A DNA stretch of 64,000 nt from Escherichia coli (GCF_044324785.1 NZ_CP172127.1), one strand, 5' to 3'; positions 14,997 to 29,872 are shown, counted from the stretch's first letter. The notes: generated from the sequence alone by a model not told the origin. Made by a program: numbers and translations.

Positions 14997-15035
14997 GCTT
15001 TTTTTCCGTATACTGCTGTAACGTTAATTTTCTGA

Positions 15036-15898
<863 letters not shown>

Positions 15899-15930
15899 TT
15901 AGCGGGGGAAGCAAAATGCCTCCCCCGGTT

Positions 15931-15948
15931 GTACTCGCTAAAGAGTAC
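15931..15948 (-). promoter_or_regulatory. TrpR operator in the trpR promoter (GTACTC-N6-GAGTAC palindrome)
   Basis: Minus strand reads ATCGTACTCTTTAGCGAGTACAACC, about 48 nt upstream of the trpR start. Confidence 0.8.
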
Positions 15949-15972
15949 GATAGCATATCATAAACGTGCGGA

Positions 15973-17910
15973 TCAGTAACGACGTCCCCATTCCGTGGCG
16001 CTCATCAATGTCGGTTTATCCCCCATGAAATAGCGGTAGTAAGCGTCATAAGCCAGCACGTTCTTCACATAACCGCGCGTCTCGGAGAACGGAATACTCT
16101 CGACAAATGCCACTGCGTCGATACGCCCGGCGCTGTTGCCAAGCCAGGTTCGCACCCGCCCTGGTCCGGCGTTATAAGCTGCTGAGGAGAAAATACGGTT
16201 ATTACCAAACTGCTGATAAACATATTGCAGGTAACTGGTGCCAATGTTGATGTTCGTTTCCGGATCCAGCAATTGTCCTGGGCTGCTATAACCAGGAATA
16301 GAGAACATCTTCACCGTATGGGTCGCCGTGCCCGGCATAATCTGCATCAGGCCGCTGGCCCCTACCGGTGATTTCACTTTCGGATTCCAGGCACTCTCCT
16401 GACGGGCAATCGCCATCGCATAGCTTTGCGGGATCTCCTTCCCACTGGTGTAACGTTTGAAAAGATCGTTGTAGGCCAGCGGGAATCTCTCTTCCAGATG
16501 ATCCCAAAGCTTCCCGGCGATCGTTGCCTGAACGCTAAGATCCCACCATTGGTTATTGAAAGCATACCGAGCCAGTTGCGCCTGCTCTGTTTTTGACTTG
16601 CTCTTCACCAGATTGGCCCACTCGCTACGCGCGGTATTATCGAGATTCCAGTACATCAACTCGCGCACGCGCGCCATCTCCGGCCCCTGAGTCAGGGCGC
16701 TGTCAACATTCTGCGGCGCTTTATCAATCTTCAGCTCATACTCTTCACCGATGCGTTGTGCTGCAACCATCGGGTAGAAACCACGCTGTTGCATGAGTTG
16801 ATGCAAAATCTCTTTTGCTTCAGCTTCACGTCCGCGTTCCAGCAGTAAATCCGCCTGCCAGTAACGCCATTCATCTTTCTCTTTCGCCTCCATCGGCAAA
16901 CGCGCCAGCCAGGTATTCAGGCCGCGACGATCGCCGGTGCCAAGCGCCATTCGCACACGGCGTTCAATAAGCGAAGTAGATTGCGAACGCATAATGGCGT
17001 CATCACGCCATTTCGCCTGTTCGTCGGTGACATCGTTGCCCATCAAACGCCAGGCGACGATATCGCGCAGCTCCTGAATCTGATCTTCATTAAGCTGCTG
17101 CGCCTGGGCAAGCGACGGGATCATCAGCCGTGCATTTTCAGCATCCTGCCGCGCCACACTGGCAAACGCCACCGCCGCCATTTGACGGGTAAAATCGGTC
17201 GCTCCGGTTGTACGCGCGAAGGTCAGTACCGTATTAGGATTGTTCGCCAATGAAATAATTGCCGAGGCGATAGTCTGGTAATCGGCAGGCATCTGCCCTG
17301 CCAGCACTGTTACGAGGCCAGTGTTACCCGCTTTCATCGCCAGACGGATACGCTCTAAATACGCCAGCGGATCTTGTTTACCTGACGCACGCCAGACGCT
17401 AAATAACTTGTCACAGGCGTTAGGCTGGCTCTTGCCGGTTAGCCACAGCTCTTTCGCCCCTTGCCAGGCTTCTTCACTCTGCCCGGTGTTCCATTTTGCA
17501 TAGTAGTAATTACATTGCGCTTCGGTAGTTCCGGGCTTTTCCGGGCTAAAGGCTAACAAGCCACGCCAGTCTTCACGCCGCGCCAGTTCATTGACGAAAC
17601 GAGATTGCAGCGTGCGAGCGGGAGGAAGCGTGGGGTTAGCGCGAACAAAGTTAGTGACCGTCACCGCCGGTTGATTCATCAGATCATCGGTGATCTGGCG
17701 GTATTCCAGGTAGGGATAAAGCGGATAATCCTTCAGTCCAGGCATCATTTGTTCGACCACATCCATCTGTCGATTATCCCAGGCCTGCTTGATTTGCGCG
17801 TAACGGCTACGCTGCTCATCCAGTGAGTCGGCTCGCGCCACGCTGCTGACCGTCAGCAGACAGACACCGGCAGCCAACAGCCGCCAGGTAACTTGTTTGG
17901 CTTTTTCCAC
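15973..17910 (-). CDS. slt: Soluble lytic murein transglycosylase Slt70
   Basis: ORF track 15973..17940; start set at the GTG codon giving (M)EKAKQVTWRLLAAGVCLL (645 aa). Confidence 0.93.
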   Translation of the reverse strand: MEKAKQVTWRLLAAGVCLLTVSSVARADSLDEQRSRYAQIKQAWDNRQMDVVEQMMPGLKDYPLYPYLEYRQITDDLMNQPAVTVTNFVRANPTLPPARTLQSRFVNELARREDWRGLLAFSPEKPGTTEAQCNYYYAKWNTGQSEEAWQGAKELWLTGKSQPNACDKLFSVWRASGKQDPLAYLERIRLAMKAGNTGLVTVLAGQMPADYQTIASAIISLANNPNTVLTFARTTGATDFTRQMAAVAFASVARQDAENARLMIPSLAQAQQLNEDQIQELRDIVAWRLMGNDVTDEQAKWRDDAIMRSQSTSLIERRVRMALGTGDRRGLNTWLARLPMEAKEKDEWRYWQADLLLERGREAEAKEILHQLMQQRGFYPMVAAQRIGEEYELKIDKAPQNVDSALTQGPEMARVRELMYWNLDNTARSEWANLVKSKSKTEQAQLARYAFNNQWWDLSVQATIAGKLWDHLEERFPLAYNDLFKRYTSGKEIPQSYAMAIARQESAWNPKVKSPVGASGLMQIMPGTATHTVKMFSIPGYSSPGQLLDPETNINIGTSYLQYVYQQFGNNRIFSSAAYNAGPGRVRTWLGNSAGRIDAVAFVESIPFSETRGYVKNVLAYDAYYRYFMGDKPTLMSATEWGRRY

Positions 17911-18120
17911 AAGCGCATCCTCTAAGTGTAAATACATCAATGCAGCGTCATGCCGCGTAATAGATTTATGCTAACCAGTCATTGCCGTTTACGCCACGTT
18001 ACGGACACTTTTTTACTTTTATCGGGAGGGTGATCGACCGGCTGGGATTAGATAAGGAAACAGGCTACACTTCGCCTTTGAAAACTCATCATCACGATAA
18101 ACATAGAGGCGAAGTCCAAC

Positions 18121-19788
18121 GTGGCTCAATTCGTTTATACCATGCATCGTGTCGGCAAAGTTGTTCCGCCGAAACGTCATATTTTGAAAAACATCTCTCT
18201 GAGTTTCTTCCCTGGGGCAAAAATTGGTGTCCTGGGTCTGAACGGCGCGGGTAAGTCCACCCTGCTGCGCATTATGGCGGGCATTGATAAAGACATCGAA
18301 GGCGAAGCGCGTCCGCAACCGGATATCAAGATTGGTTATCTGCCGCAGGAACCGCAGCTGAACCCGGAACACACCGTGCGTGAGTCCATTGAAGAAGCGG
18401 TTTCTGAAGTGGTTAACGCCCTGAAACGCCTGGATGAAGTGTATGCGCTGTACGCCGATCCGGATGCCGATTTTGACAAGCTGGCCGCTGAACAAGGCCG
18501 TCTGGAAGAGATCATTCAGGCTCACGACGGTCACAACCTGAACGTTCAGCTGGAGCGTGCGGCGGATGCGCTGCGTCTGCCGGACTGGGACGCGAAAATC
18601 GCTAACCTCTCCGGTGGTGAGCGTCGTCGCGTGGCGTTGTGCCGCCTGCTGCTGGAAAAACCAGACATGCTGCTGCTCGACGAACCGACCAACCACCTGG
18701 ATGCCGAATCCGTGGCCTGGTTGGAACGCTTCCTGCACGACTTCGAAGGCACCGTGGTGGCGATTACCCACGACCGTTACTTCCTTGATAACGTTGCAGG
18801 CTGGATCCTCGAACTGGACCGCGGTGAAGGTATTCCGTGGGAAGGCAACTACTCCTCCTGGCTGGAGCAGAAAGATCAACGTCTGGCGCAGGAAGCTTCA
18901 CAAGAAGCTGCGCGTCGTAAGTCGATTGAGAAAGAGCTGGAGTGGGTACGTCAGGGAACTAAAGGCCGTCAGTCGAAAGGTAAAGCACGTCTGGCGCGTT
19001 TTGAAGAGCTGAACAGCACCGAATATCAGAAACGTAACGAAACCAACGAACTGTTTATTCCACCAGGACCGCGTCTTGGCGATAAAGTGCTGGAAGTCAA
19101 CAACCTGCGTAAATCCTATGGCGATCGTCTGCTGATTGATGACCTGAGCTTCTCGATCCCGAAAGGAGCGATCGTCGGGATCATCGGTCCGAACGGTGCG
19201 GGTAAATCGACCCTGTTCCGTATGATCTCTGGTCAGGAACAGCCGGACAGCGGCACCATCACTTTGGGTGAAACGGTGAAACTGGCATCGGTTGATCAGT
19301 TCCGTGACTCAATGGATAACAGCAAAACCGTTTGGGAAGAAGTTTCCGGCGGGCTGGATATCATGAAGATCGGCAACACCGAGATGCCAAGCCGTGCCTA
19401 CGTTGGCCGCTTTAACTTTAAAGGGGTTGATCAGGGTAAACGCGTTGGCGAACTCTCCGGCGGTGAGCGCGGTCGTCTGCATCTGGCGAAGCTGCTGCAG
19501 GTTGGCGGCAACATGCTGCTGCTCGACGAACCAACCAACGACCTGGATATCGAAACCCTGCGCGCGCTGGAAAACGCCCTGCTGGAGTTCCCGGGCTGCG
19601 CGATGGTTATCTCGCACGACCGTTGGTTCCTCGACCGTATCGCCACGCACATTCTGGATTACCAGGATGAAGGTAAAGTTGAGTTCTTCGAAGGTAACTT
19701 TACCGAGTACGAAGAGTACAAGAAACGCACGCTGGGCGCAGACGCGCTGGAGCCGAAGCGTATCAAGTACAAGCGTATTGCGAAGTAA
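18121..19788 (+). CDS. ettA: ABC-F energy-dependent translational throttle protein EttA (YjjK)
   Basis: ORF track 555 aa, MAQFVYTMHRVGKVVPPKRHILKNISLSFFPGAKIGVLGLNGAGKSTLL...; two ABC domains. Confidence 0.97.
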   Translation: MAQFVYTMHRVGKVVPPKRHILKNISLSFFPGAKIGVLGLNGAGKSTLLRIMAGIDKDIEGEARPQPDIKIGYLPQEPQLNPEHTVRESIEEAVSEVVNALKRLDEVYALYADPDADFDKLAAEQGRLEEIIQAHDGHNLNVQLERAADALRLPDWDAKIANLSGGERRRVALCRLLLEKPDMLLLDEPTNHLDAESVAWLERFLHDFEGTVVAITHDRYFLDNVAGWILELDRGEGIPWEGNYSSWLEQKDQRLAQEASQEAARRKSIEKELEWVRQGTKGRQSKGKARLARFEELNSTEYQKRNETNELFIPPGPRLGDKVLEVNNLRKSYGDRLLIDDLSFSIPKGAIVGIIGPNGAGKSTLFRMISGQEQPDSGTITLGETVKLASVDQFRDSMDNSKTVWEEVSGGLDIMKIGNTEMPSRAYVGRFNFKGVDQGKRVGELSGGERGRLHLAKLLQVGGNMLLLDEPTNDLDIETLRALENALLEFPGCAMVISHDRWFLDRIATHILDYQDEGKVEFFEGNFTEYEEYKKRTLGADALEPKRIKYKRIAK

Positions 19789-19876
19789 TGCGTAAAATGC
19801 CGGATGCGGCGCGCCAGCATCGCATCCGGTATTAGTTAAATGATTAGTCCCCGGAAAAAGGCAGAATTTTCTTTAA
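19015..19876 (+). repeat. Left copy of a ~0.86 kb direct repeat (ettA codon Ser299 to stop, REP hairpin, decayed 3' tip of the antitoxin gene)
   Basis: Sequence from agcaccgaatatcagaaacgtaacg... through ...ccggaaaaaggcagaattttctttaa recurs at 23917-24776. Confidence 0.85.
19797..19831. repeat. REP-like palindrome downstream of ettA (gccggatgcg ... cgcatccggt)
   Basis: Inverted repeat read directly; same element recurs at about 24686-24720. Confidence 0.7.
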
Positions 19877-19943
19877 GCGTATTAGCTCAGATGCGGACTG
19901 ACACCTCAAATCAAGCGGGAACTCATGGTTCCCGCTTAACGTT

Positions 19944-20831
19944 TTATTCACCGCGCAGGATCTGGCGGAAATGGGAAACCAGCGGACGTTGGTTGGCTTT
20001 ATGCCAGGCTGCCCATAATTGCGTTGAATAATTCATCCACGGCAATTCACGTAATACCACCCCTTCCGGCGCATTATGACGCAGACTATGTTGAATTAAG
20101 GCCAGACCTAATCCCGCAGCGACCAGACCTAATGCCGTGAGGGGTTCACCCGCTTCCAGGCGAATATCAGGATTAAACCCGGCGTTAACACAGGCGGCGA
20201 CAAAATGATCGCGAGAATGCGCATCGTCGTTATGAATCACCGCAATCCACTGCTCATCGCCAAGTTGTGACGCGACAAGGTTTTCCTCCTGCGCCAGAGG
20301 ATGATTTTGCGGTAAGGCCAACAACATTCGATCATCCAGAACCTGAATATATTCCAGATCCTGCTCGCTGTCGGCGGGCGGCGTATCGACCAGAGAAAAA
20401 TCGAGACTGCGCTGGCGCAGGCCTTCAATCTGGGTAGCCGGTGGTTGGCTGTAAAGTGCGATATGCACATTCGGACGCGATACACGTAACGTACGTAGCG
20501 CCGTAGAAAGCACACCGGAATGCATGGCGTTTTCGATATAGCCAATACACAAGCCACCATCTTCCCCCCGTCCCAGGCGTTTGCCTAACGACTCCAGGCG
20601 GTTGGCGTGTGTCAGCAACGAACGTGTTTCGGCAAGGAATGTCTGTCCATCAGCGGTCAGGCGAATGCGCTGCTGATTACGCTCAAACAGCGTCAGCCCC
20701 AGCCGTTCTTCCAGTTGTGCAATCTGGCGGCTCAGCGGTGATTGCGAGATATGTAATCGCTCGGCTGCGCGTCCCACGTGCTCTTCTTCTGCGACCACCA
20801 CGAAGTACTTCAGTTGGCGTAAATCAATCAT
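19944..20831 (-). CDS. LysR-family transcriptional regulator
   Basis: ORF track 19944..20924; start set at MIDLRQLKYFVVVAEEEHVGRAAERLHISQSPLSRQIAQLEERLG (typical LysR HTH); divergent from the reductase genes. Confidence 0.85.
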   Translation of the reverse strand: MIDLRQLKYFVVVAEEEHVGRAAERLHISQSPLSRQIAQLEERLGLTLFERNQQRIRLTADGQTFLAETRSLLTHANRLESLGKRLGRGEDGGLCIGYIENAMHSGVLSTALRTLRVSRPNVHIALYSQPPATQIEGLRQRSLDFSLVDTPPADSEQDLEYIQVLDDRMLLALPQNHPLAQEENLVASQLGDEQWIAVIHNDDAHSRDHFVAACVNAGFNPDIRLEAGEPLTALGLVAAGLGLALIQHSLRHNAPEGVVLRELPWMNYSTQLWAAWHKANQRPLVSHFRQILRGE

Positions 20832-20964
20832 GTTAGACCTCAAAGGACTTAAGTCAGACGAATTATGTCCTATCAAGTCACAACCTCGCAAGGTATTGTG
20901 ATCCACGTCACAGGGCGATAGCAAAAAAACGCCCTAACCCAAACCGAATAATTGAGGACATCTT

Positions 20965-21975
20965 ATGAGCATCAAAAATTTACTTCCCGGCAAAATTGGC
21001 TTAGGTGGCGCACCACTCGGCAACATGTTCCGTGCCATTCCGGAAGACGAGGCCCACGCCACCGTGAGCGAAGCCTGGAACCTGGGCGTGCGTTACTTTG
21101 ATACCGCGCCGCTGTACGGCTCTGGCCTTTCTGAAATCCGCATGGGTGAAGCGCTGTCTCAGTATCCACGCGATGAATACGTTCTGAGCAGCAAAGTCGG
21201 TCGCATCATGCTGGACGAAATGGAAGATCCGGCAAAACGTGATTTCGGTGAAAAAGGTGGCCTGTTCGAACACGGCCTGAAAAACAAAATTCTGAATGAC
21301 TACTCTGCTGACGCCACGCTGCGCTCGATTGAAGACAGCCTGAAACGCCTGAAAACAGACCGTCTGGATATTGTCTGGATCCATGACCCGGCGCAGGACT
21401 TCTACGGTGACAGCTGGCTGGAACAGTTCAACATTGCCCGTACCGGTGCGTTTCGTGCGCTGACGCGTTTGCGTGACGAAGGTGTGATTAAAGCCTGGGG
21501 ACTGGGTGTGAATCGCGTCGAACCTTGCGAACTGACGCTGGCGCTGGACGAACCGAAGCCGGATGCGTTCCTGCTGGCGGGGCGTTATTCCCTGCTGGAT
21601 CACGAACGTGCGCTGCAACGCCTGATGCCAGAAGCACTGGAACAGAACGTGGATATTGTTGTGGGCGGTCCGTACAGCTCTGGCGTACTGGCAGGCGGCG
21701 AGCACTTTGAATATCAGAAAGCTTCTGCGGCCATCCAGCAGAAAGTGGCGCAAATTAACACCATTGCCACACGTTTCAATGTGAACGTTAAAGCAGCTGC
21801 GCTGCAGTTCGCACTGGCAAACCCGGCCGTTGCGGCGGTTATTCCTGGCTCCAGCCGTCCTGGCCGTATGGCAGAAGATCTGGCTGCACTGAATGCGCCT
21901 GTTCCGGCTGAATTCTGGGCAGAAATGCGCCGTCAAAATCTGGTTGCGGAAAACGCTCCGCTGCCGACCCGTTAA
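20965..21975 (+). CDS. Aldo-keto reductase family oxidoreductase
   Basis: ORF track 336 aa; AKR-type N-terminus (GLGGAPLGNMF...YFDTAPLYGSGLSE); GGAG-type RBS 8 nt upstream. Confidence 0.85.
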   Translation: MSIKNLLPGKIGLGGAPLGNMFRAIPEDEAHATVSEAWNLGVRYFDTAPLYGSGLSEIRMGEALSQYPRDEYVLSSKVGRIMLDEMEDPAKRDFGEKGGLFEHGLKNKILNDYSADATLRSIEDSLKRLKTDRLDIVWIHDPAQDFYGDSWLEQFNIARTGAFRALTRLRDEGVIKAWGLGVNRVEPCELTLALDEPKPDAFLLAGRYSLLDHERALQRLMPEALEQNVDIVVGGPYSSGVLAGGEHFEYQKASAAIQQKVAQINTIATRFNVNVKAAALQFALANPAVAAVIPGSSRPGRMAEDLAALNAPVPAEFWAEMRRQNLVAENAPLPTR

Positions 21976-21994
21976 TCAACCTGGTGAGAAAACG

Positions 21995-22792
21995 ATGAAA
22001 CTGGATCTGACAGGTAAAGTCGCGGTAGTCAGCGGCTCAACCTCCGGCATTGGGCAGGGTATCGCCGCCGGACTGGCAAAAGCAGGCGCAACGGTGGTTG
22101 TCGTCGGCCGTAAACAGCGCGGCGTTGATGACGCCATGGCTGCGATTGCGGCACAAACTCCCACGGCGTCACTGCGTGGCGTGGTGGCCGACCTCAGCAC
22201 CGAAGACGGCGTGGCTGCGCTGATCGCTGCAGTCCCAACGGCTGATGTGCTGGTCAATAATCTGGGCATTTTTAACGATAAAGATTTCTTTAGCGTTCCG
22301 GATGATGAGTGGATGCACTTCTATAACGTCAACGTCCTCTCCGGCGTTCGTCTGGCGCGTCACTATGCGCCAGGCATGACGGAACAGGGCTGGGGGCGGA
22401 TTATCTTTGTCTCGTCCGAATCCGGCGTGGCAATCCCTGGCGACATGATCAACTACGGCGTCACCAAAGCCGCGAATCTGGCGGTTTCTCATGGTCTGGC
22501 GAAACGACTGGCGGGGACCGGTGTGACCGTCAACGCCATTCTGCCAGGGCCAACCTTTACCGATGGCCTGAAAGAGATGCTGGCGGATGCCGCTGCACAA
22601 TCGGGACGCAGTGCGCGTGAACAGGCCGATGAGTTTGTTAAAACCTCGCGTCCGAGCTCCATCATCCAGCGTGCGGCGGATGTGGAAGAAGTGGCGAATC
22701 TGGCGGTTTATCTCGCGTCACCGCTTTCCTCGGCAACCACAGGGGCAGCCCTGCGCGTCGATGGTGGCGTCGTCGACACCCTGACTATGTAA
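21995..22792 (+). CDS. Short-chain dehydrogenase/reductase (classical SDR)
   Basis: ORF track 21893..22792; start set at MKLDLTGKVAVVSGSTSGIGQGIA (TGxxxGxG); YGVTK catalytic motif present. Confidence 0.85.
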   Translation: MKLDLTGKVAVVSGSTSGIGQGIAAGLAKAGATVVVVGRKQRGVDDAMAAIAAQTPTASLRGVVADLSTEDGVAALIAAVPTADVLVNNLGIFNDKDFFSVPDDEWMHFYNVNVLSGVRLARHYAPGMTEQGWGRIIFVSSESGVAIPGDMINYGVTKAANLAVSHGLAKRLAGTGVTVNAILPGPTFTDGLKEMLADAAAQSGRSAREQADEFVKTSRPSSIIQRAADVEEVANLAVYLASPLSSATTGAALRVDGGVVDTLTM

Positions 22793-22817
22793 CCCTATAA
22801 ATTAAGAGAAAATTATC

Positions 22818-23234
22818 ATGGCTAAAACAACTGTATCGATCGAAATTCCGGCTTCTGCCGACGCCGTATGGCAATTGATGGGCGGCTTTGATGCGCTGCC
22901 AGACTGGCTGCCGTTCATCCCGAAAAGCGTGGTGACAGAAGGCGGTCGCGTTCGTTCGCTGACAACCTCTGACGGCGGCACTGTGGTTGAACGTCTGGAA
23001 GCGTTTGATAACCGTCAACGCAGTTATACCTATTCCATTATTCAAGCACCGTTCCCAGTGGTGGATTACCTCTCCACCATTACCGTTCATGAAACCGCCG
23101 ACAGCCAGGTTTCCCGTGTGGAATGGTTCGGTGAATTCACCCCGGTGAATGTGACGAACGAAGAGGCCGAAGCGCTGTTTACCGGCATCTATCGGGATGG
23201 TCTCAAGGCGCTGAAGGACAACTTTGTTGCCTGA
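22818..23234 (+). CDS. SRPBCC (Bet v1-like / polyketide cyclase-dehydrase fold) protein
   Basis: ORF track 138 aa; size and composition typical of SRPBCC small-molecule binding proteins; family call from memory only. Confidence 0.6.
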   Translation: MAKTTVSIEIPASADAVWQLMGGFDALPDWLPFIPKSVVTEGGRVRSLTTSDGGTVVERLEAFDNRQRSYTYSIIQAPFPVVDYLSTITVHETADSQVSRVEWFGEFTPVNVTNEEAEALFTGIYRDGLKALKDNFVA

Positions 23235-23391
23235 TGCAATCGACAGGCGTCGGAACGTCCGGCGTCTGATTATTAACAAAAGCAGAATAGTCTATTGTCA
23301 TTTGTATCATTTATGTTATCAGGCAGCAGGCGTATTCTCTTCCCATCGCGTTAATAAACGCCAAACAATTAAGACACTCTGGAATATAAAC

Positions 23392-23604
23392 ATGAAAACG
23401 ATCATCGCAATTTTTACGGCTTCTCTTTTCTCTGTCGCGGCGTTTAACGCATCGGCGCAAAGCGTGACAGCAACCGGTACAACACTGGATTCTGCGGAAG
23501 CAGTTATTGCGCAGAAAGCGAAAGAGATGAACGCCTCTGAATACAAAATCACCAGCGCTCGCATGGGCAATACCGTCACCATGAGTGCCGAACTGTACAA
23601 ATAA
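23392..23604 (+). CDS. Small secreted DUF1471 (YdgH/BhsA/McbA-like) protein
   Basis: Internal start MKTIIAIFTASLFSVAAFNASAQ (signal peptide) within ORF track 23224..23604; 70 aa. Confidence 0.6.
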   Translation: MKTIIAIFTASLFSVAAFNASAQSVTATGTTLDSAEAVIAQKAKEMNASEYKITSARMGNTVTMSAELYK

Positions 23605-23652
23605 CCGCGCAAGGGACCCATTACGTAATTTGCTAAATATGCGCTGAATGCG

Positions 23653-23838
23653 TTGCCATTAAAAAACCGTATTGTAATGCCACCGATGACACGTTCCCGT
23701 GCGGGTGACGTTGCGACTGACATGATGGCGGACTATTACGCGCAGCGCGCTAGTGCAGGACTTATCATCAGCGAAGGTACGCAAATCAGCAGAAGCGCTG
23801 CGCATAATTTTCCACGGCCCGCTGATTTACTCCGGTAA
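23653..23838 (+). pseudogene. Remnant of an Old Yellow Enzyme (NemA-like NADH:flavin oxidoreductase) N-terminus
   Basis: ...LKNRIVMPPMTRSRAGDVATDMMADYYAQRASAGLIISEGTQIS resembles the OYE N-terminal region, then the frame terminates after about 60 codons. Confidence 0.5.
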
Positions 23839-23916
23839 ATAGACCAAAGCGCGCGCAGAAGCGGACTGTCAGATTTGATTGCATTCTGGCTACGCAACTG
23901 GTCGGTTGGAGTATGA

Positions 23917-24677
23917 AGCACCGAATATCAGAAACGTAACGAAACCAACGAACTGTTTATTCCACCTGGACCGTGTCTGGGCGACAAAGTGCTGGAAGTC
24001 AGCAACCTGCGTAAATCCTATGGCGATCGTCTGCTGATTGACTCCCTGAGCTTCTCGATCCCGAAAGGAGCGATCGTCGGGATCATCGGTCCGAACGGTA
24101 CGGGCAAATCGACGTTGTTCCGTATGATCTCTGGTCAGGAACAGCCGGACAGCGGCACCATCACTCTGGGTGAAACGGTGAAACTGGCATCGGTTGATCA
24201 GTTCCGTGACTCAATGGATAACCGCAAAGCCGTTTGGGAAGAAGTTTCCGGCGGGCTGGATATCATGAAGATCGGCAACACCGAGATGCCAAGCCGCGCC
24301 TACGTTGGCCGCTTTAACTTTAAGGTAAACGCGTTGGTGAACTTTCCGGTGGTGAGCGCGGTCGTCTGCATCTGGCGAAGCTGCTGCAGGTTGGCGGCAA
24401 CATGCTGCTGCTCGACGAACCAACTAACGACCTGAATATCGAAACCCTGCGCGCGCTGGAAAACGCCCTACTGGAGTTCCCGGGCTGTGCGATGGTTATC
24501 TCGCACGACCGTTGGTTCCTCGACCGTATCGCCACGCACATCCTGGACTACCAGGATGAAGGTAAAGTTGAGTTCTTCGAAGGTAACTTTACCGAGTACG
24601 AAGAGTACAAAAAACGCACGCTGGGCGCAGACGCGCTGGAGCCGAAGCGTATCAAGTACAAGCGTATTGCGAAGTAA
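23917..24677 (+). pseudogene. ettA: Frameshifted duplicate of the ettA 3' half
   Basis: Near-identical to ettA 19015-19788 but with a ~13-nt deletion near 24318; ORF track splits it into 23989..24435 and 24402..24677. Confidence 0.85.
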
Positions 24678-24776
24678 TGCGTAAAATGCCGGGTGCGGCG
24701 CGCCAGCATCGCATCCGGTATTAGTTAAATGATTAATGGGAGGCAAGTTCCCGGAAAAAGGCAGGATTTTCTTTAA
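23917..24776 (+). repeat. Right copy of the ~0.86 kb direct repeat (ettA 3' fragment, REP, and the true 3' end of the antitoxin gene)
   Basis: Aligns by eye to 19015-19876 with point differences and two small indels. Confidence 0.85.
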
Positions 24777-25017
24777 TTGTGGCAAGTACTTTTGCAGCCA
24801 ATCCCGTAGGATTTCTTCGCTTCGATTCCCAGCTTTTAATGGTATCCACACTGGTTCCCAGAGCTTTTGCCATCTCACTTTGAGAAACGTTGAGTTGCTC
24901 ACGAATAGCTTTAACATCCGCAATTTCGTAGCGGGTCACCCGTGCAGGTTCTTTTAAACCTTGTTTAATCTCGACAGCCTCTTCCAGAGAGGTTTTCAAC
25001 TCATCAAAAAAACTCAT
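24733..25017 (-). CDS. XRE-family HTH antitoxin (HigA-like)
   Basis: ORF track 94 aa, MSFFDELKTSLEEAVEIKQGLKEPARVTRYEIADVKAIREQLNVSQSEMAKALGTSVDTIKSWE...; starts 1 nt after the toxin stop. Confidence 0.75.
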   Translation of the reverse strand: MSFFDELKTSLEEAVEIKQGLKEPARVTRYEIADVKAIREQLNVSQSEMAKALGTSVDTIKSWESKRRNPTGLAAKVLATIKENPAFFRELASH

Positions 25018-25018
25018 T

Positions 25019-25351
25019 TTATACCTCGCCTTTGAGCAGTTTCGTCAACTTCTTTAGTTGAGCTTTTTCCGTATCTGTCAGACTATCTTTGGCATTTTTC
25101 GGATAGGCCATAATCAAATAAATAATCTCTTCCGTCGCCAGAAAGTAAATTATTCTGACACTGCCACTTTTTCCCTGTGAACCCGCAGCCATTCGGACTT
25201 TACGCAATCCACCAGTCTGCTGAATGAGATCACCTTTATCGGGAGTTCCGATGAGTTCTTTTTGTAATTCCTTTAATTCATCATCGGTTGCAATCTGCTT
25301 GATCTGACGCGTAAACATTGGCGTCTCTATAAATATTATCGCCTTGCCCAT
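25019..25351 (-). CDS. RelE/ParE-superfamily toxin, HigB-2-like
   Basis: ORF track 25019..25429; start set at MGKAIIFIETPMFTRQIK... with GGAGG upstream; GGLRKVRMA...GSVRIIYF motif region resembles HigB-2 toxins. Confidence 0.7.
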   Translation of the reverse strand: MGKAIIFIETPMFTRQIKQIATDDELKELQKELIGTPDKGDLIQQTGGLRKVRMAAGSQGKSGSVRIIYFLATEEIIYLIMAYPKNAKDSLTDTEKAQLKKLTKLLKGEV

Positions 25352-25367
25352 CCCCCCTCCCTGGCAG

Positions 25368-25402
25368 GTACATTGTACACCGAAATGGAGTACTAAGTAC
25401 AC
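25368..25402 (-). promoter_or_regulatory. Two GTAC-N3-GTACAC motifs 22 bp apart upstream of the toxin gene; candidate autoregulatory operators
   Basis: gtacattgtacac (25368-25380) and gtactaagtacac (25390-25402) read directly in the 90-bp nadR-toxin spacer. Confidence 0.45.
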
Positions 25403-25442
25403 TTTTGAATTAGTAATCCCACTCAACATCTTATAAAGATGA

Positions 25443-26675
25443 TTATCCCTGCTCCCCCATCATCTCCCGCACCAGCTCCACACAGCGCAGGAAACGGCTG
25501 TCGTAATCGTCCTCTTCAACCCGCACAAATTCGATATTGTTCTCTTCCAGCATCTCTACCAGCAAGTTCTGGAACTCTTTGCGATCCACCGAACTACCGA
25601 GGCTGCGTAAACCATCCGCCACCCACGGGGTGTTGTTCTCCAGCAAGATAACCAGATCAAAACGGTATTCATCGATCAGCGCCTGCACGAACGGATGCTC
25701 CCGCCCTTCGTACTTTTTGCAGAACGCCTGGGTAGTGACAAAATCAGTGTCGATAAACGCCACTTTATTGGCATATTTCACTGCAAAATCAATGTATTGA
25801 GCGTGTCCCAGCGCGATTTTATCGTAGTCGGAATACTGCAATGCGATCTCATCACCGCCAAGGTGTGAAAAGACATAATCGCGACCATATTCCCATGCAC
25901 TGGTAGTGTTGAAGATATTAGCAAGTTTGTTTACCAGGGTGGATTTACCGCTCGACTCGCCGCCAAGGATCGCCACGGTACGCACAAAGAACGGCTTCAC
26001 TTCGGTGGGAATATATTCCCAGTAGCGGAACGGGTTTTCGCGGATCTGCGCACCGCTGATACTCATAAAGGTACGCTTCGGATCGACCAGCACCGTCTCG
26101 ATCCCCAGATGTTCCATATACTGTGGCGCATCGGCTTCTTCCGAGGTGTAGATCAGGTCCGGCTGGATCCCCTTTTCAGCCATAAACTTTTTGATGCCGT
26201 TGCTCCACACATCCCAGCCGTGCGGATATGGCTCCATGCCCTCTTCGTTGAAAGCATGAATACGGATATTTTTCTGATATTTAAAGGTTTGCAATAACCA
26301 GCGCAGACGATCCGGCACGGTGGGCTGCTGCGACATGGCGCTGTCTTCAAACAACGCGCGGTCGCGGGTATCGTCAAAACCCATAATGATATGCAGCTCG
26401 TCAACCTGGCTACAGGCGCGCTGGATAAGGTAGATATGTCCGGTATGTAGCGGGTAGAACTTACCGAATACGACACCAATGGTTTTCTTCTGTCGGGGAA
26501 ATTCAAGCCCCAAAAAACGGTGCAACGCCTCCAGTTTTTGCGCGCTGGGGCTTTTAATTTTGGCATTCAGTAACTGGCTTAAATACCCTTTGGTCATACC
26601 GCTGGCATCAGCTACCTGCTGTAGCGTGCAGCCCTGTTGCTTGATGGCAGTTTTCAGGTAATCAAATGACGACAT
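25443..26675 (-). CDS. nadR: Trifunctional NAD biosynthesis regulator / NMN adenylyltransferase / ribosylnicotinamide kinase NadR
   Basis: ORF track 25443..26696; start set at MSSFDYLKTAIKQQGCTLQQVADASGMTKGYLSQLL (410 aa). Confidence 0.95.
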   Translation of the reverse strand: MSSFDYLKTAIKQQGCTLQQVADASGMTKGYLSQLLNAKIKSPSAQKLEALHRFLGLEFPRQKKTIGVVFGKFYPLHTGHIYLIQRACSQVDELHIIMGFDDTRDRALFEDSAMSQQPTVPDRLRWLLQTFKYQKNIRIHAFNEEGMEPYPHGWDVWSNGIKKFMAEKGIQPDLIYTSEEADAPQYMEHLGIETVLVDPKRTFMSISGAQIRENPFRYWEYIPTEVKPFFVRTVAILGGESSGKSTLVNKLANIFNTTSAWEYGRDYVFSHLGGDEIALQYSDYDKIALGHAQYIDFAVKYANKVAFIDTDFVTTQAFCKKYEGREHPFVQALIDEYRFDLVILLENNTPWVADGLRSLGSSVDRKEFQNLLVEMLEENNIEFVRVEEDDYDSRFLRCVELVREMMGEQG

Positions 26676-26695
26676 ATCTCCCTCCGTATCTCTCA

Positions 26696-28078
26696 TTATA
26701 AGTCGTCGAACACGCTAAGCGCGTCGGAGAGTTTTTTAACGCCAAAAATCTGCATCCCTTCCGGCGCTTTTTTCGGCACGTTAGCCGCCGGAACAATCGC
26801 CCGGCGAAAACCGTGTTTCGCCGCTTCAGAGATTCGTTCCTGACCGCTGGGCACCGGGCGGATCTCCCCTGCCAGCCCGACTTCACCAAACACCACCAGA
26901 TCCTGTGGCAGCGGTCTGTCGCGCAGGCTGGAAACCATCGCCAGCAGTAACGCTAAGTCGGCGCTGGTTTCGGTTACCTTCACGCCGCCGACCACGTTCA
27001 CAAACACATCCTGATCGGCCATTTGCAGACCACCGTGACGGTGCAAGACAGCCAGCAGGATTGCCAGACGGTTTTGTTCCAGCCCCACTGCCACGCGGCG
27101 CGGATTCGCCATCATCGAGTGATCGACCAGCGCCTGAATCTCCACCAGCAACGGACGCGTTCCTTCCCACACCACCATCACTGAGCTACCGGAGGTCACT
27201 TCATCACCGCGGCTTAAAAAGATGGCGGAAGGGTTGCTGACTTCACGCAGCCCCTGTTCGGTCATCGCGAAGACGCCCAGCTCATTCACCGCGCCGAAGC
27301 GGTTTTTATGGCTGCGTAAGGTGCGAAAACGGGAGTCGGCATCGCCATCCAGAAGCACCGAACAGTCAATACAGTGTTCCAGCACTTTAGGGCCAGCCAG
27401 CGAACCATCTTTGGTTACGTGCCCAACCATGACAATCGCCACGCCGCGCGTTTTGGCGAAGCGCGTCAGATAAGCCGCCGTTTCACGCACCTGCGCCACG
27501 CTGCCAGGCGATGATTGTACATCCGCCATATGCATCACCTGAATGGAGTCAATTACCATCAGCTTCGGTTGCTCTTCTTCGGCAATCAGGCAGATTTGCT
27601 CGATGCTGGTTTCCGACAACATATTGAGATTGTCAGTCGGCAGGCCAAGGCGATGAGCGCGCATTGCCACCTGTTGCAGCGACTCTTCGCCGGTGACATA
27701 CAGCGTTTTCATCTGCTGCGCCAGTTTGCACAGCGTTTGCAGCAACAGCGTGGATTTCCCCGCACCTGGGTTACCGCCAATCAGAATGGCGCTTCCCGGC
27801 ACCACCCCGCCGCCTAATACGCGGTCGAACTCTTTAAATCCGGTGGAAAAACGCGGCAGCTCTTCAAGGCTGATGTCGGAAAGTTTCTGGACTTTTGCCA
27901 CCCCGGCGCTACCGGCATAGCCACTGAGACGCTCGTTACGCGCCACCGTTGGTGACGCGGCAAGACGCACCTCGGTGATGGTGTTCCAGGCATGACAGGC
28001 ACTGCACTGTCCCTGCCAGCGCGGATAATCGGCCCCGCATTCATTACAAACAAAGGCGCGTTTTGGAGCTTTTGCCAC
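26696..28078 (-). CDS. radA: DNA repair protein RadA (Sms)
   Basis: ORF track 26696..28126; start set at the GTG codon giving (M)AKAPKRAFVCNECGADYPRWQGQCSACHAWNT (460 aa). Confidence 0.95.
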   Translation of the reverse strand: MAKAPKRAFVCNECGADYPRWQGQCSACHAWNTITEVRLAASPTVARNERLSGYAGSAGVAKVQKLSDISLEELPRFSTGFKEFDRVLGGGVVPGSAILIGGNPGAGKSTLLLQTLCKLAQQMKTLYVTGEESLQQVAMRAHRLGLPTDNLNMLSETSIEQICLIAEEEQPKLMVIDSIQVMHMADVQSSPGSVAQVRETAAYLTRFAKTRGVAIVMVGHVTKDGSLAGPKVLEHCIDCSVLLDGDADSRFRTLRSHKNRFGAVNELGVFAMTEQGLREVSNPSAIFLSRGDEVTSGSSVMVVWEGTRPLLVEIQALVDHSMMANPRRVAVGLEQNRLAILLAVLHRHGGLQMADQDVFVNVVGGVKVTETSADLALLLAMVSSLRDRPLPQDLVVFGEVGLAGEIRPVPSGQERISEAAKHGFRRAIVPAANVPKKAPEGMQIFGVKKLSDALSVFDDL

Positions 28079-28126
28079 GGTGTACCTCGTTAATGCTGTG
28101 CCGCCCGCAGGATGACGGGCGAGCAA

Positions 28127-29095
28127 TTACTTCTGATTCAGGCTGCCAGAGAGGATGCAGAATACCCCCATCAGGTCAGCGTGACGGATGGTGACTTCCG
28201 TCTTTTCATTCACTTTTGGCTTGGCATGGTAGGCAATCCCCAGCCCTGCCGCTTTGATCATCGGCAGGTCATTGGCTCCATCACCAATCGCCACGGTCTG
28301 CGCCAGCGGGATTTCATACTCCTGCGCGAGGCGAGTCAGAGTTTTCGCTTTGTACTGCGCGTCAACGATGTCGCCGATCACATTGCCGGTAAATTTACCG
28401 TCCATGATCTCCAGTTCATTGGCTACCACGGCTGTCAGGCGCAGCTTGTCGCGCAGGTATTCAGCAAAGAAAGTAAAGCCGCCGGAGGCAATCGCCACTT
28501 TCCAGCCCAGCGTTTCCAGCTTGAGTACCAGCTGCGTTAAGCCTGGCATCAGCGGCAGATTTTCACGCACCTGTTGCAGGATATTGGCGTCAGCGCCTTT
28601 CAGCGTCGCCACACGGCTGCGCAGGCTGGCGGTAAAATCGAGTTCGCCGCGCATCGCCCGTTCGGTTACCTCCGCCACCATCTCGCCCGTTCCGGCCAGT
28701 TTGGCAATTTCATCAATACATTCAATCTGGATGGCGGTGGAATCCATGTCCATCACCAGCAAACCTGGCGTGCGCAGGTGCGGGATTTTCCCCAGCGGCG
28801 CGACATCCAGCTGCGCTTCGTGGGCCAGGCGCGTAGCCCGCGCGGTGAGTGAACCTGCCAGACGAATCACCTGATAATCTTCCACGCACCAGGCGGCAAC
28901 AATCACCATAGCCGCGCCCAGTTTGCTCTGGTATTGGGTCAGACGTTGTTTATCCAGCCCACGACCATACAGCAGCCAGCCGCTACGACCTGCGTGGTAA
29001 TCCAGTGGCATCACTTCATCACCACTTAATGAAAGAGGCAGACCCGGCCATAAAGAGACATCTTCAGGCAGGTCGCACCAGGTAATGTTAGGCAT
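28127..29095 (-). CDS. serB: Phosphoserine phosphatase
   Basis: ORF track 28127..29233; start set at MPNITWCDLPEDVSLWPGLPLSLSGDEV (322 aa). Confidence 0.95.
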   Translation of the reverse strand: MPNITWCDLPEDVSLWPGLPLSLSGDEVMPLDYHAGRSGWLLYGRGLDKQRLTQYQSKLGAAMVIVAAWCVEDYQVIRLAGSLTARATRLAHEAQLDVAPLGKIPHLRTPGLLVMDMDSTAIQIECIDEIAKLAGTGEMVAEVTERAMRGELDFTASLRSRVATLKGADANILQQVRENLPLMPGLTQLVLKLETLGWKVAIASGGFTFFAEYLRDKLRLTAVVANELEIMDGKFTGNVIGDIVDAQYKAKTLTRLAQEYEIPLAQTVAIGDGANDLPMIKAAGLGIAYHAKPKVNEKTEVTIRHADLMGVFCILSGSLNQK

Positions 29096-29200
29096 TAAAG
29101 CTCCTGTAAAATCGTTCGAAGCAGGGAAAATAACGCATGAGGCTACCTTGTATCCATTGCTTCTGGCAACATTAAGTCTCAAATTTTCAAAGGGTGGAAG

Positions 29201-29845
29201 ATGGCTCGCACAAAACTGAAATTCCGGCTGCATCGGGCAGTGATTGTCCTGTTCTGTCTTGCCTTGTTAGTGGCGCTGATGCAGGGAGCGTCATGGTTTA
29301 GTCAAAACCACCAGCGACAGCGTAATCCGCAGCTGGAAGAACTGGCCCGCACCCTGGCGCGTCAGGTAACCCTGAACGTTGCACCGCTGATGCGTACCGA
29401 CTCGCCGGATGAAAAACGCATTCAGGCGATCCTCGATCAGTTAACGGATGAAAGCCGTATCCTCGACGCGGGTGTGTATGACGAACAAGGCGATCTTATC
29501 GCACGTTCTGGCGAAAGCGTCGAAGTGCGCGACCGGCTGGCGCTCGACGGTAAAAAAGCAGGCGGCTATTTTAACCAGCAGATTGTCGAACCGATTGCCG
29601 GGAAAAACGGACCGCTCGGCTATCTGCGCCTGACGCTCGACACCCATACGCTCGCCACCGAAGCCCAACAGGTGGATAACACCACTAACATTTTACGCCT
29701 GATGTTGCTGCTCTCACTGGCAATCGGCGTAGTGCTGACCCGCACGCTGCTACAGGGTAAACGCACCCGCTGGCAGCAATCGCCCTTCCTGTTAACCGCC
29801 AGCAAACCGGTGCCGGAAGAGGAAGAAAGCGAGAAAAAAGAGTGA
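29201..29845 (+). CDS. ytjB: Membrane protein Smp (YtjB)
   Basis: ORF track 214 aa, MARTKLKFRLHRAVIVLFCLALLVALMQGASWFSQ... Confidence 0.9.
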   Translation: MARTKLKFRLHRAVIVLFCLALLVALMQGASWFSQNHQRQRNPQLEELARTLARQVTLNVAPLMRTDSPDEKRIQAILDQLTDESRILDAGVYDEQGDLIARSGESVEVRDRLALDGKKAGGYFNQQIVEPIAGKNGPLGYLRLTLDTHTLATEAQQVDNTTNILRLMLLLSLAIGVVLTRTLLQGKRTRWQQSPFLLTASKPVPEEEESEKKE

Positions 29846-29872
29846 CCCATTACTACAAGAAAGGAAATCGTT

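What the first reader, a model, noticed from the sequence alone, without database searches (positions are those of the whole stretch)
19877..23916. Cargo of the cassette: LysR regulator divergent from an AKR-SDR-SRPBCC operon, followed by a DUF1471 protein and an OYE remnant
A LysR regulator (19944-20831, minus) faces a three-gene plus-strand cluster of aldo-keto reductase, classical SDR and SRPBCC protein, with a 133-bp divergent promoter region. This is a typical small-molecule detoxification or catabolic module, but the substrate cannot be inferred from sequence. The downstream secreted DUF1471 protein and the truncated Old Yellow Enzyme fragment suggest the cassette is a mosaic carrying decayed remnants.
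Basis: partly seen in the sequence, partly recalled or inferred. Interest (0 to 1): 0.45.

Follow-up and report, generated by a model that had tools for sequence, protein, structure and literature searches.

The report
Accessory LysR-controlled reductase island in E. coli
This 4-kb insert between ettA and nadR is an accessory gene island found in about 9% of E. coli: a regulator plus three reductase-type genes that are conserved from Streptomyces to Pseudomonas, with no known substrate.

Summary
All gene calls are confirmed: LysR 19944-20831 (-), AKR 20965-21975, SDR 21995-22792, SRPBCC 22818-23234, secreted DUF1471 23392-23604, and a dead Old Yellow Enzyme (OYE) remnant.

The block is accessory. 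It is in 482 of 5426 complete E. coli genomes, always chromosomal and single-copy, and it is absent from K-12.

It is not a mosaic. The same six genes, in the same order and with an intact 365-aa OYE, occur in Yokenella and in a cryptic Escherichia lineage, at other chromosomal sites. E. coli carries one truncated copy of that island. The five intact genes are under strong purifying selection (dN/dS 0.00-0.22).

LysR<>AKR-SDR-SRPBCC is syntenic in 69 of 80 species sampled. The narrower trio LysR<>AKR-SRPBCC reaches Paraburkholderia and Streptomyces, with 63%, 73% and 61% identity to the E. coli proteins for Streptomyces and a related operator.

No function is published. My inference is inducible NAD(P)H-dependent reduction of a reactive carbonyl or enone. 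It rests on repeated linkage to OYE, HxlR and DJ-1/PfpI-type genes.

The window's layout, with an 860-bp ettA 3' duplication flanking the island, is rare: 1 of 5426 genomes. This is an ordinary kind of system and a modest lead.

The parts
19015..19876 (+). Direct-repeat copy 1. It covers the last 774 bp of the intact ettA gene (18121-19788) plus 88 bp downstream, including about 44 bp of the nadS 3' end.
   Evidence: the repeat finder families D1, D2 and D5; blastn collinearity.
19877..19912 (.). 36-bp left junction filler of unknown origin. It is not homologous to the island in other species or to the ettA-nadS locus.
   Evidence: Homology to L005 and L006 starts at 19911-19913. The filler is found only in E. 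coli cassette loci.
19913..19937 (+). Stem-loop just downstream of the lysR stop codon (11-bp stem). It marks the left boundary of the island in all Escherichia copies. I read it as the lysR terminator, although the scan lists the hairpin on the + strand and lysR is on the - strand.
   Evidence: Terminator scan; junction comparison.
19944..20831 (-). LysR-type transcriptional regulator, 295 aa.
   Evidence: Pfam HTH_1 and LysR_substrate. No NCBIfam equivalog is reached. 63% identical to the Streptomyces nigra counterpart. dN/dS 0.02-0.13.
20832..20964 (.). Divergent control region with four features. (1) A conserved operator block at 20848-20869 (CTTAAGT-N7-ATTATGTC, within GGAC..GTCC). (2) A predicted lysR promoter, TTGCGA-18-CATAAT, at 20891..20862 on the minus strand. 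(3) TGTGA-N6-TCACA at 20897-20912. (4) A small dyad GGGCG-N12-CGCCC at 20913-20934.
   Evidence: Alignment A1. The motif occurs once per locus in 80 of 93 sequences. Promoter scan. The TGTGA-N6-TCACA pattern is unique in the 64-kb window against 0.05 expected. Pair counts for the dyad.
20965..21975 (+). Aldo-keto reductase, 336 aa. Asp46, Tyr51, Lys77 and His140 sit in DxAPxYG, SKVG and WIHDP motifs.
   Evidence: Pfam; motif positions. The closest solved structure is plant L-galactose dehydrogenase, at only 1.8e-29. More than 7000 relatives have E<1e-60.
21995..22792 (+). Classical SDR oxidoreductase, 265 aa (GSTSGIG, NNLG, Ser141, Tyr154, Lys158).
   Evidence: Pfam; motifs. About 85% identical to PDB 8g9m, which carries only a generic family name.
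22818..23234 (+). SRPBCC (Polyketide_cyc2) protein, 138 aa.
   Evidence: Pfam. Matches PDB 3cnw ('XoxI') at 4e-52 and 3f08 at 1e-50. Cross-phylum alignment A2 has 45 invariant columns.
23392..23604 (+). DUF1471 (YdgH/BhsA/McbA family) secreted protein, 70 aa.
   Evidence: Pfam. Below the cut-offs for BhsA, RclB and YhcN. dN/dS 0.06-0.14.
23623..23861 (+). Old Yellow Enzyme (NemA-like) pseudogene. The start codon is ACG, there is a 6-bp deletion, a 686-bp internal deletion at 23790|23791, and the 3' end is missing.
   Evidence: Comparison with the intact 365-aa gene at L005:10659-11756. The deleted 686 bp is absent from all complete E. coli genomes.
23862..23918 (.). 57-bp right junction filler of unknown origin.
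23917..24776 (+). Direct-repeat copy 2: an ettA 3' pseudogene (frameshifted, 13-bp indel) plus the ettA-nadS spacer. It runs into the intact nadS (24733-25017, -) and the relE-like toxin gene (25019-25351, -).
   Evidence: PGAP annotates the same feature in strain 06-00048.

Best explanation
The region is a horizontally acquired accessory island lodged in the 3' end of nadS, between ettA and nadR.

Shown:
- It carries five intact, selectively maintained genes and one dead gene.
- A LysR-type regulator is transcribed divergently from an AKR-SDR-SRPBCC operon across a 133-bp spacer.
- The spacer holds a deeply conserved operator that overlaps the predicted lysR promoter.
- A separate DUF1471-OYE unit follows, and its OYE has been destroyed.
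- The evolutionary core is the AKR-SRPBCC pair with its divergent regulator. That core is conserved in Beta- and Gammaproteobacteria and Actinobacteria, and in Firmicutes with an HxlR regulator in the one locus where a regulator was seen. The SDR is an addition seen in the Gammaproteobacteria sampled, and DUF1471 was seen only in Enterobacterales.

Inferred:
- The LysR protein represses its own promoter. On binding a small-molecule inducer, it activates the operon.
- The enzymes carry out NAD(P)H-dependent reduction of a reactive, probably hydrophobic carbonyl compound. Candidates are enals or enones, quinones or dicarbonyls of plant or soil origin.
- An OYE first saturates the C=C bond. AKR and SDR then reduce the C=O group. 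The SRPBCC protein binds or delivers the ligand.
- In E. coli the island's own OYE became dispensable, plausibly because chromosomal nemA covers that step.

In this window the island is flanked by 860-bp direct repeats of the ettA 3' end. That layout is a rare variant and should allow RecA-mediated loss of the island.
For: Anatomy: domain calls, catalytic motifs and matching PGAP annotation.

Accessory status: 482 of 5426 genomes, none on plasmids. K-12 lacks it.

Single-block origin:
- The six-gene island with intact OYE occurs in E69 and Yokenella.
- It sits at three different loci in three Escherichia lineages: ettA/nadS in E. coli, next to yhiN in E69, and after glyS in E. whittamii.
- No complete E. 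coli genome holds the 686 bp that is deleted from the OYE gene.

Selection: dN/dS is 0.00-0.22 for all five intact genes.

Conservation:
- Of 80 species loci, 76 have the divergent LysR, 72 the SDR, 74 the SRPBCC and 69 all four.
- Paraburkholderia and Streptomyces have LysR<>AKR-SRPBCC.
- The Streptomyces proteins are 73% (AKR), 63% (LysR) and 61% (SRPBCC) identical to the E. coli ones.

Operator: CTYAAST-N7-ATTATGTC occurs exactly once per locus, always in the spacer. A related block is present in Streptomyces and Paraburkholderia. The predicted lysR promoter overlaps it.

Detoxification reading:
- An OYE is linked to the module in Yokenella, E69, T. odontotermitis and Providencia.
- OYE-HxlR-AKR-SRPBCC occurs in Gottfriedia.
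- Flavin reductase, OYE, a type 1 glutamine amidotransferase domain (DJ-1/PfpI-type) protein and the AKR occur together on a Priestia plasmid.
- An HxlR<>AKR pair lies next to the module in Streptomyces.
- No transporter, lactonase, dehydratase or aldolase is conserved beside the module.
Against: - No experiment or paper on any member of this module was found, so the substrate and even the reaction direction are unknown.
- The nearest solved AKRs are L-galactose dehydrogenases, which oxidise a sugar. Automated pipelines name the family 'D-threo-aldose 1-dehydrogenase'.
- A perfect CRP-type TGTGA-N6-TCACA lies in the spacer of Enterobacteriaceae and Yersinia. That would suit a catabolic operon.
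- The OYE link is seen in only a minority of the loci examined, and the OYE is lost in E. coli and E. whittamii.
- LysR binding, the transcription start and the inducer are not demonstrated.
Confidence: 0.5

Rival explanations
1. The module is catabolic. The AKR would work oxidatively as an aldose or lactol 1-dehydrogenase, as in L-galactose or L-fucose dehydrogenases. The SDR would perform a second oxidation. The operon would be induced by the substrate through LysR and placed under cAMP-CRP catabolite control.
For: - The closest solved AKRs are L-galactose dehydrogenases.
- JGI and NCBI label relatives 'D-threo-aldose 1-dehydrogenase'.
- A perfect TGTGA-N6-TCACA with a variable spacer is conserved in Enterobacteriaceae and Yersinia, and is unique in the window against 0.05 expected.
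Against: - Identity to L-galactose dehydrogenases is remote; the best aligned stretch covers only about 70 residues.
- No sugar transporter, lactonase, dehydratase or aldolase travels with the module in 80 loci.
- The partners that do recur are OYE, HxlR and DJ-1/PfpI-type proteins, not sugar-pathway enzymes.
- With the most plausible promoter (my own reading of the sequence), the TGTGA site centres near -26. That is not a CRP activating position and fits a LysR activation site instead.
- The motif is absent from Serratia, Acinetobacter and Pseudomonas.
Confidence: 0.2
2. The AKR-SRPBCC pair makes or modifies a specific small signalling or secondary metabolite. The SRPBCC protein would act as a cyclase or isomerase rather than as a passive binder. 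The LysR protein would sense that same molecule.
For: - Regulator, enzyme and SRPBCC show unusually high cross-phylum identity (63%, 73% and 61%), and the operator is conserved. This implies one specific ligand.
- In the two-gene versions the AKR and SRPBCC genes abut or overlap.
- SRPBCC alignment A2 has 45 invariant columns, many of them polar or aromatic.
Against: - No PKS, NRPS or other biosynthetic genes are conserved nearby.
- The module is small and moves alone.
- No data exist on any product.
Confidence: 0.1
3. The cassette is decaying junk: a hitch-hiking fragment on its way to loss, with no current function in E. coli.
For: The OYE gene is destroyed. The nadS target gene is disrupted. 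The island is absent from 91% of genomes. In this window the flanking 860-bp repeats would allow deletion.
Against: - All five other genes are intact here and in the other strains inspected, with dN/dS of 0.00-0.13 even within E. coli.
- Ribosome-binding-site-like sequences precede the lysR, AKR and SDR start codons.
- The promoter and operator are conserved.
Confidence: 0.04

Closest known systems
NemR-nemA-gloA and related electrophile-response operons of E. coli (my own knowledge of the family, not tested here)
   Same: An inducible flavin OYE works with carbonyl-detoxifying enzymes against reactive electrophiles. The island's ancestral OYE scores 396 bits against the NemA model NF007899, whose cut-off is 403.
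   Different: The regulator is LysR-type, not TetR-type NemR. The enzymes are AKR, SDR and SRPBCC, not glyoxalase. The OYE is dead in E. coli. No inducer is known.
rclR-rclABC reactive-chlorine locus (my own knowledge of the family)
   Same: A small periplasmic DUF1471 protein sits next to a flavin oxidoreductase, under a divergent regulator.
   Different: The DUF1471 protein scores only 29 bits against RclB, whose cut-off is 100. The oxidoreductase is an OYE rather than an RclA-type disulfide reductase. The regulator family differs.
Plant L-galactose dehydrogenase and bacterial 'D-threo-aldose 1-dehydrogenase' AKRs
   Same: These are the nearest solved AKR sequences, and the source of the name that pipelines give the family.
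   Different: E is only 1.8e-29, with a short best aligned stretch. There is no sugar-pathway gene context. The reaction direction is unknown.
Solved structures deposited under generic or unexplained names: PDB 8g9m and 3t4x (SDR), 3cnw 'XoxI' and 3f08 (SRPBCC)
   Same: They are direct homologues of two of the three operon proteins. 8g9m is about 85% identical to the SDR, and 3cnw matches the SRPBCC at 4e-52.
   Different: Their molecule names give no function, so they supply a fold but no substrate.
Classical LysR-activated divergent operons (for example benM/catM-type)
   Same: The regulator is divergent. A conserved operator lies upstream of the target promoter and overlaps the regulator's own predicted promoter.
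   Different: The operator sequence is its own (GGACTYAAGT-N7-ATTATGTC). No NCBIfam equivalog is reached; the best is AlsR at 223 bits against a cut-off of 430. The effector is unknown.

Membership tests
LysR-type transcriptional regulators | N-terminal HTH_1 domain plus a C-terminal LysR substrate-binding domain, about 300 aa in total | tested here: met
   HTH_1 2e-24 (residues 4-63) and LysR_substrate 8e-39 (residues 88-293).
LysR-type transcriptional regulators | Divergent target operon with a conserved binding site in the spacer that overlaps the regulator's own promoter | tested here: inconclusive
   A conserved block is present once per locus in 80 of 93 sequences and overlaps the predicted lysR -10 element. 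Binding itself cannot be tested in silico.
Aldo-keto reductase superfamily | Full-length Aldo_ket_red domain with the Asp-Tyr-Lys-His catalytic tetrad | tested here: met
   Pfam 1e-44 over profile positions 1-287 of 291. D46, Y51, K77 and H140 sit in the expected motifs; their assignment as the tetrad is my reading and was not checked against a structure.
D-threo-aldose / L-galactose 1-dehydrogenase | Close sequence relationship to a characterised enzyme, or a sugar-oxidation pathway context | tested here: not met
   The best PDB hit has E=1.8e-29 with a short aligned stretch. No NCBIfam equivalog is reached. No lactonase, dehydratase or transporter is conserved nearby.
Classical short-chain dehydrogenases/reductases | Gly-rich cofactor motif, NNxG motif and Ser-Tyr-Lys catalytic residues | tested here: met
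   GSTSGIG at 14-20, NNLG at 88-91, S141, Y154 and K158. adh_short_C2 2e-44.
SRPBCC / Polyketide_cyc2 | Full-length match to the family profile | tested here: met
   PF10604 1.7e-30 over profile positions 1-141 of 142. PDB 3cnw at 4e-52.
Old Yellow Enzyme (NemA-like alkene reductase) | Complete domain of about 340-365 aa with an intact reading frame | tested here: not met
   Only profile positions 11-64 of 342 match. The start codon is lost, 686 bp are deleted and the 3' end is missing. It is a pseudogene.
DUF1471 (YdgH/BhsA/McbA) | Signal peptide plus one DUF1471 domain | tested here: met
   PF07338 2.5e-11. The signal peptide is read directly from the sequence. The protein is not an equivalog of BhsA, RclB, YhcN or YbiJ.
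Integron cassette, transposon or integrative element (the sense in which 'cassette' might be read) | Terminal inverted repeats, an attC or att site, an integrase or transposase gene, or a tRNA target | tested here: not met
   No inverted repeats at the cassette ends. No tRNA within 15000-30000. No mobility gene among the ORFs. The ends are an illegitimate junction in nadS and a junction with a duplicated ettA fragment.

The most novel reading that the evidence does not exclude
LysR<>AKR-SRPBCC would be a single, cross-phylum sensing-and-conversion system for one specific, widespread natural compound. In this reading the SRPBCC protein is an obligate catalytic or substrate-delivery partner of the AKR, not a generic reductase accessory. 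That would define a new two-protein enzyme system. The E. coli island would then be a tractable entry point, because natural island-plus and island-minus strains exist.
Probability: 0.3. Interest if true: 0.55.

Novelty: new member of a known kind. Interest (0 to 1): 0.3.

Why it matters
If the function were found, it would name a gene trio present in thousands of soil, plant-associated and enteric bacteria. All three operon proteins have solved homologues in the PDB, but none has an assigned function. It would also explain what about 9% of E. coli gain from carrying the island. The natural presence/absence polymorphism, the compact conserved operator and the existing structures make the question cheap to test. 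As it stands, this is a routine LysR-controlled oxidoreductase operon, already annotated generically in RefSeq.

Tried and rejected
1. Literature searches found nothing relevant. I searched by RefSeq protein accessions, by the domain combination, by ettA/nadR island terms and by 'XoxI'. The papers on 'D-threo-aldose 1-dehydrogenase' concern other enzymes.
2. I looked for an RNA element in the 5' region. Rfam gave nothing. RNAalifold on the spacer alignment gave only -8.3 kcal/mol and picked the DNA dyad. A hand-specified 5-bp hairpin pairs in 80% of cells against 35-46% in slid controls, but it is too small to call.
3. I tested whether the Pseudomonas neighbours add pathway genes. The recurrent flanking families are a histidine kinase, a response regulator, DinB, ICMT and a HAD hydrolase. 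I read these as local synteny, not pathway partners.
4. I tested whether the two junction fillers were once contiguous. They share a 14/16 direct repeat, CAGAWGCGGACTGWCA. No complete E. coli genome holds the reconstructed 'empty site', so this was rejected.
5. I tested whether the island is plasmid-borne in enterics. It is on no E. coli plasmid. In PLSDB the AKR family sits mainly on large plasmids of soil bacteria, plus one Ewingella plasmid.
6. The order of events at the right junction stays unresolved. The common form is cassette|nadS 5' remnant, and the window form is cassette|ettA'. Both share the same cassette end...GTATGAAG. Either form could derive from the other through one illegitimate event.

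Full report
**1. What is there**

The window around the finding is an E. coli-type locus:
- slt (15973-17940, -)
- ettA (18121-19788, +)
- the 4,040-bp block 19877-23916
- a frameshifted copy of the ettA 3' end (23917-24776)
- nadS (24733-25017, -)
- a RelE-like toxin gene (25019-25351, -)
- nadR and radA

PGAP calls the same five CDSs in other strains. The AKR has Asp46, Tyr51, Lys77 and His140 in the expected motifs. The SDR has GSTSGIG, NNLG, Ser141, Tyr154 and Lys158. Ribosome-binding-site-like sequences precede the lysR, AKR and SDR starts. The DUF1471 protein has an N-terminal signal-peptide-like segment.

**2. The OYE remnant**

Compared with the intact 365-aa NemA-like gene in locus L005, the E. 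coli copy carries four lesions:
- start codon ATG->ACG at 23623
- a 6-bp deletion
- a 686-bp internal deletion at 23790|23791
- loss of the 3' end after 23861

No complete E. coli genome contains the missing 686 bp. I infer that all carriers share the same damaged copy, which points to one acquisition.

**3. Accessory status and local architecture**

The block is in 482 of 5426 complete E. coli genomes. It is always chromosomal and single-copy, at 95-99.6% identity. K-12 has ettA, a short nadS and nadR with no cassette. B2-type strains have ettA, nadS, relE and nadR.

The left junction (19876|19877) lies about 44 bp inside the 3' end of nadS.

Two right-junction forms exist:
- In 439 genomes, the cassette end (...GTATGAAG) abuts a 5' nadS remnant directly before nadR.
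- In this window, the same end abuts a copy of ettA starting at the equivalent of 19015. The island is therefore bracketed by 860-bp direct repeats. This junction occurs in only one complete genome, strain 06-00048.

The duplicated ettA'-nadS-relE segment is at most 97.3% identical to any B2-type locus. I read that as a sign the arrangement is old.

The block has no integrase, transposase, terminal inverted repeats or tRNA. 'Cassette' is therefore only a descriptive word here. The 36-bp and 57-bp fillers at the two ends occur only in E. coli carriers. Which right-junction form came first is unresolved.

**4. Origin: one island, not a mosaic**

A scan of one genome per species with the AKR gave 80 loci. 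Yokenella regensburgei and strain E69 carry LysR<>AKR-SDR-SRPBCC-DUF1471-OYE in the same order, with a full-length OYE. E69 is deposited as E. coli; I take it to be a cryptic Escherichia lineage because it came up as a separate species representative.

The island sits at a different place in each Escherichia lineage:
- In E69 it lies beside yhiN-pitA-uspA and a ProA anti-phage gene.
- In E. whittamii it follows glyQS, and its OYE has a different internal deletion.
- In E. coli it lies in nadS.

In all three, the left boundary is the stem-loop just downstream of the lysR stop codon. The island has therefore moved as a unit to three sites, and its OYE has been inactivated twice. DUF1471 and OYE also travel as a pair in Trabulsiella odontotermitis, on the other side of lysR.

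**5. The genes are maintained**

Pairwise dN/dS for LysR, AKR, SDR, SRPBCC and DUF1471 is 0.00-0.22 in every comparison. This includes window versus another E. coli, where dS is 0.02-0.09 and omega is at most 0.13.

**6. How widely the module is conserved**

Among the 80 species loci:
- 76 have the divergent LysR
- 72 have the SDR
- 74 have the SRPBCC
- 69 have all four
- 9 have DUF1471 nearby

The species are Pseudomonas (70-76% aa identity), Acinetobacter, Serratia, Yersinia, Providencia, Ewingella, Raoultella, Trabulsiella, Yokenella and others.

The AKR family exceeds 7000 sequences at E<1e-60. Members in Streptomyces, Bacillus-group, Janthinobacterium and Paraburkholderia are 72-76% identical. 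Gene context in distant taxa:
- Paraburkholderia and Streptomyces nigra have LysR<>AKR-SRPBCC without the SDR.
- Two Pseudomonas loci also lack the SDR.
- Gottfriedia has OYE-HxlR-AKR-SRPBCC.
- A Bacillus megaplasmid has AKR-SRPBCC.
- Saccharopolyspora has the AKR alone.

The E. coli and Streptomyces LysR proteins are 63% identical over their full length. The SRPBCC proteins are 55-61% identical across phyla, with 45 invariant columns. The core is thus AKR plus SRPBCC with a dedicated regulator.

**7. Control region**

Next to the lysR start lies an almost invariant block, GGACTYAAGT-N7-ATTATGTCC (window 20848-20869, within 20846-20871). A recognisably related block occurs in Paraburkholderia and Streptomyces.

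A sigma-70-like lysR promoter, TTGCGA-18-CATAAT at 20891..20862 on the minus strand, overlaps the block. This is the classical layout for LysR autoregulation, but it is an inference.

Enterobacteriaceae and Yersinia also have a perfect TGTGA-N6-TCACA at 20897-20912. The pattern is unique in the 64-kb window against 0.05 expected, and the spacer between the half-sites varies among species. It could be a CRP site or the LysR activation site. With the most plausible -35/-10 pair (my own reading of the sequence), it centres near -26, which favours the LysR activation site.

A small GGGCG-N12-CGCCC dyad follows. No Rfam family matches the region.

**8. Function**

Nothing has been published on any member of this module. 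Solved homologues exist but carry only generic names: 8g9m and 3t4x for the SDR, and 3cnw ('XoxI') and 3f08 for the SRPBCC. The nearest solved AKRs are plant L-galactose dehydrogenases, at remote similarity.

The best contextual clue is repeated, phylogenetically independent linkage to electrophile-defence gene types:
- OYE in Enterobacterales, Gottfriedia and Priestia
- an HxlR-family regulator in Gottfriedia and beside the module in Streptomyces
- a type 1 glutamine amidotransferase domain (DJ-1/PfpI-type) protein and a flavin reductase in Priestia
- a stress-type DUF1471 protein in Enterobacterales

No transport or sugar-pathway genes accompany the module.

I therefore favour inducible reduction of a reactive enal, enone, quinone or dicarbonyl, with probability about 0.5. 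In this model OYE acts on the C=C bond, AKR and SDR act on the C=O group, and SRPBCC binds the ligand. Loss of the island's OYE in E. coli would be tolerated because nemA is present; that last point is inference from general knowledge of nemA. A catabolic lactol or sugar dehydrogenase role is the main rival, at about 0.2.

**9. Verdict**

It belongs to an unusually well conserved, uncharacterised AKR-SRPBCC module. Interest is 0.3.

Noticed in passing
window 24733-25351 (nadS 24733-25017, relE-like 25019-25351, both -): An intact NadS (NF041265, 1e-54) and RelE-family toxin pair lies next to nadR. K-12 keeps only a 55-aa nadS, with REP-type sequence in place of its 3' part and no toxin. About 672 of 5426 genomes match at least 80% of the 23917-25442 segment that carries the full pair.
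   Followed up: partly
window 19015-19876 and 23917-24776: 860-bp direct repeats of the ettA 3' end flank the island. The second copy is frameshifted with a 13-bp indel. This junction is found in only 1 of 5426 complete genomes (06-00048). That genome still differs from the window by 1.5% over 10.5 kb, which suggests an old arrangement.
   Followed up: partly
window 19889-19904 and 23857-23872: A 14/16 direct repeat, CAGAWGCGGACTGWCA, sits just inside both cassette ends. The right copy spans the point where OYE homology stops. A reconstructed 'empty site' was not found in any E. coli genome. The repeat is unexplained.
   Followed up: yes
window 20897-20912: A perfect CRP-type palindrome, TGTGATCCACGTCACA, lies in the lysR-AKR spacer. 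It is conserved, with a variable spacer between half-sites, in Enterobacteriaceae and Yersinia, but not in Serratia, Acinetobacter or Pseudomonas.
   Followed up: partly
window 20913-20934 (alignment A1 columns 88-92 and 105-109): A small dyad or hairpin, GGGCG-N12-CGCCC, lies upstream of the AKR start, with some compensatory changes across genera. It pairs in 80% of cells against 35-46% in slid controls. Whether it acts at the DNA or RNA level is unknown.
   Followed up: partly
L005:12523-16971 (-): In cryptic Escherichia strain E69 the island lies directly beside a ProA-type anti-phage helicase gene (NF058533, 1686 bits). This suggests a variable-region hot spot next to yhiN.
   Followed up: no
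L006:10656-11111: E. whittamii carries its own, different internal deletion of the island's OYE gene, leaving a 151-aa fusion ORF. This is a second, independent inactivation of the same gene.
   Followed up: partly
L007 (1397-bp contig labelled Collinsella sp. MAG): A contig 100% identical to the E. coli AKR is binned in a Collinsella metagenome-assembled genome. This is most likely a binning contaminant.
   Followed up: no
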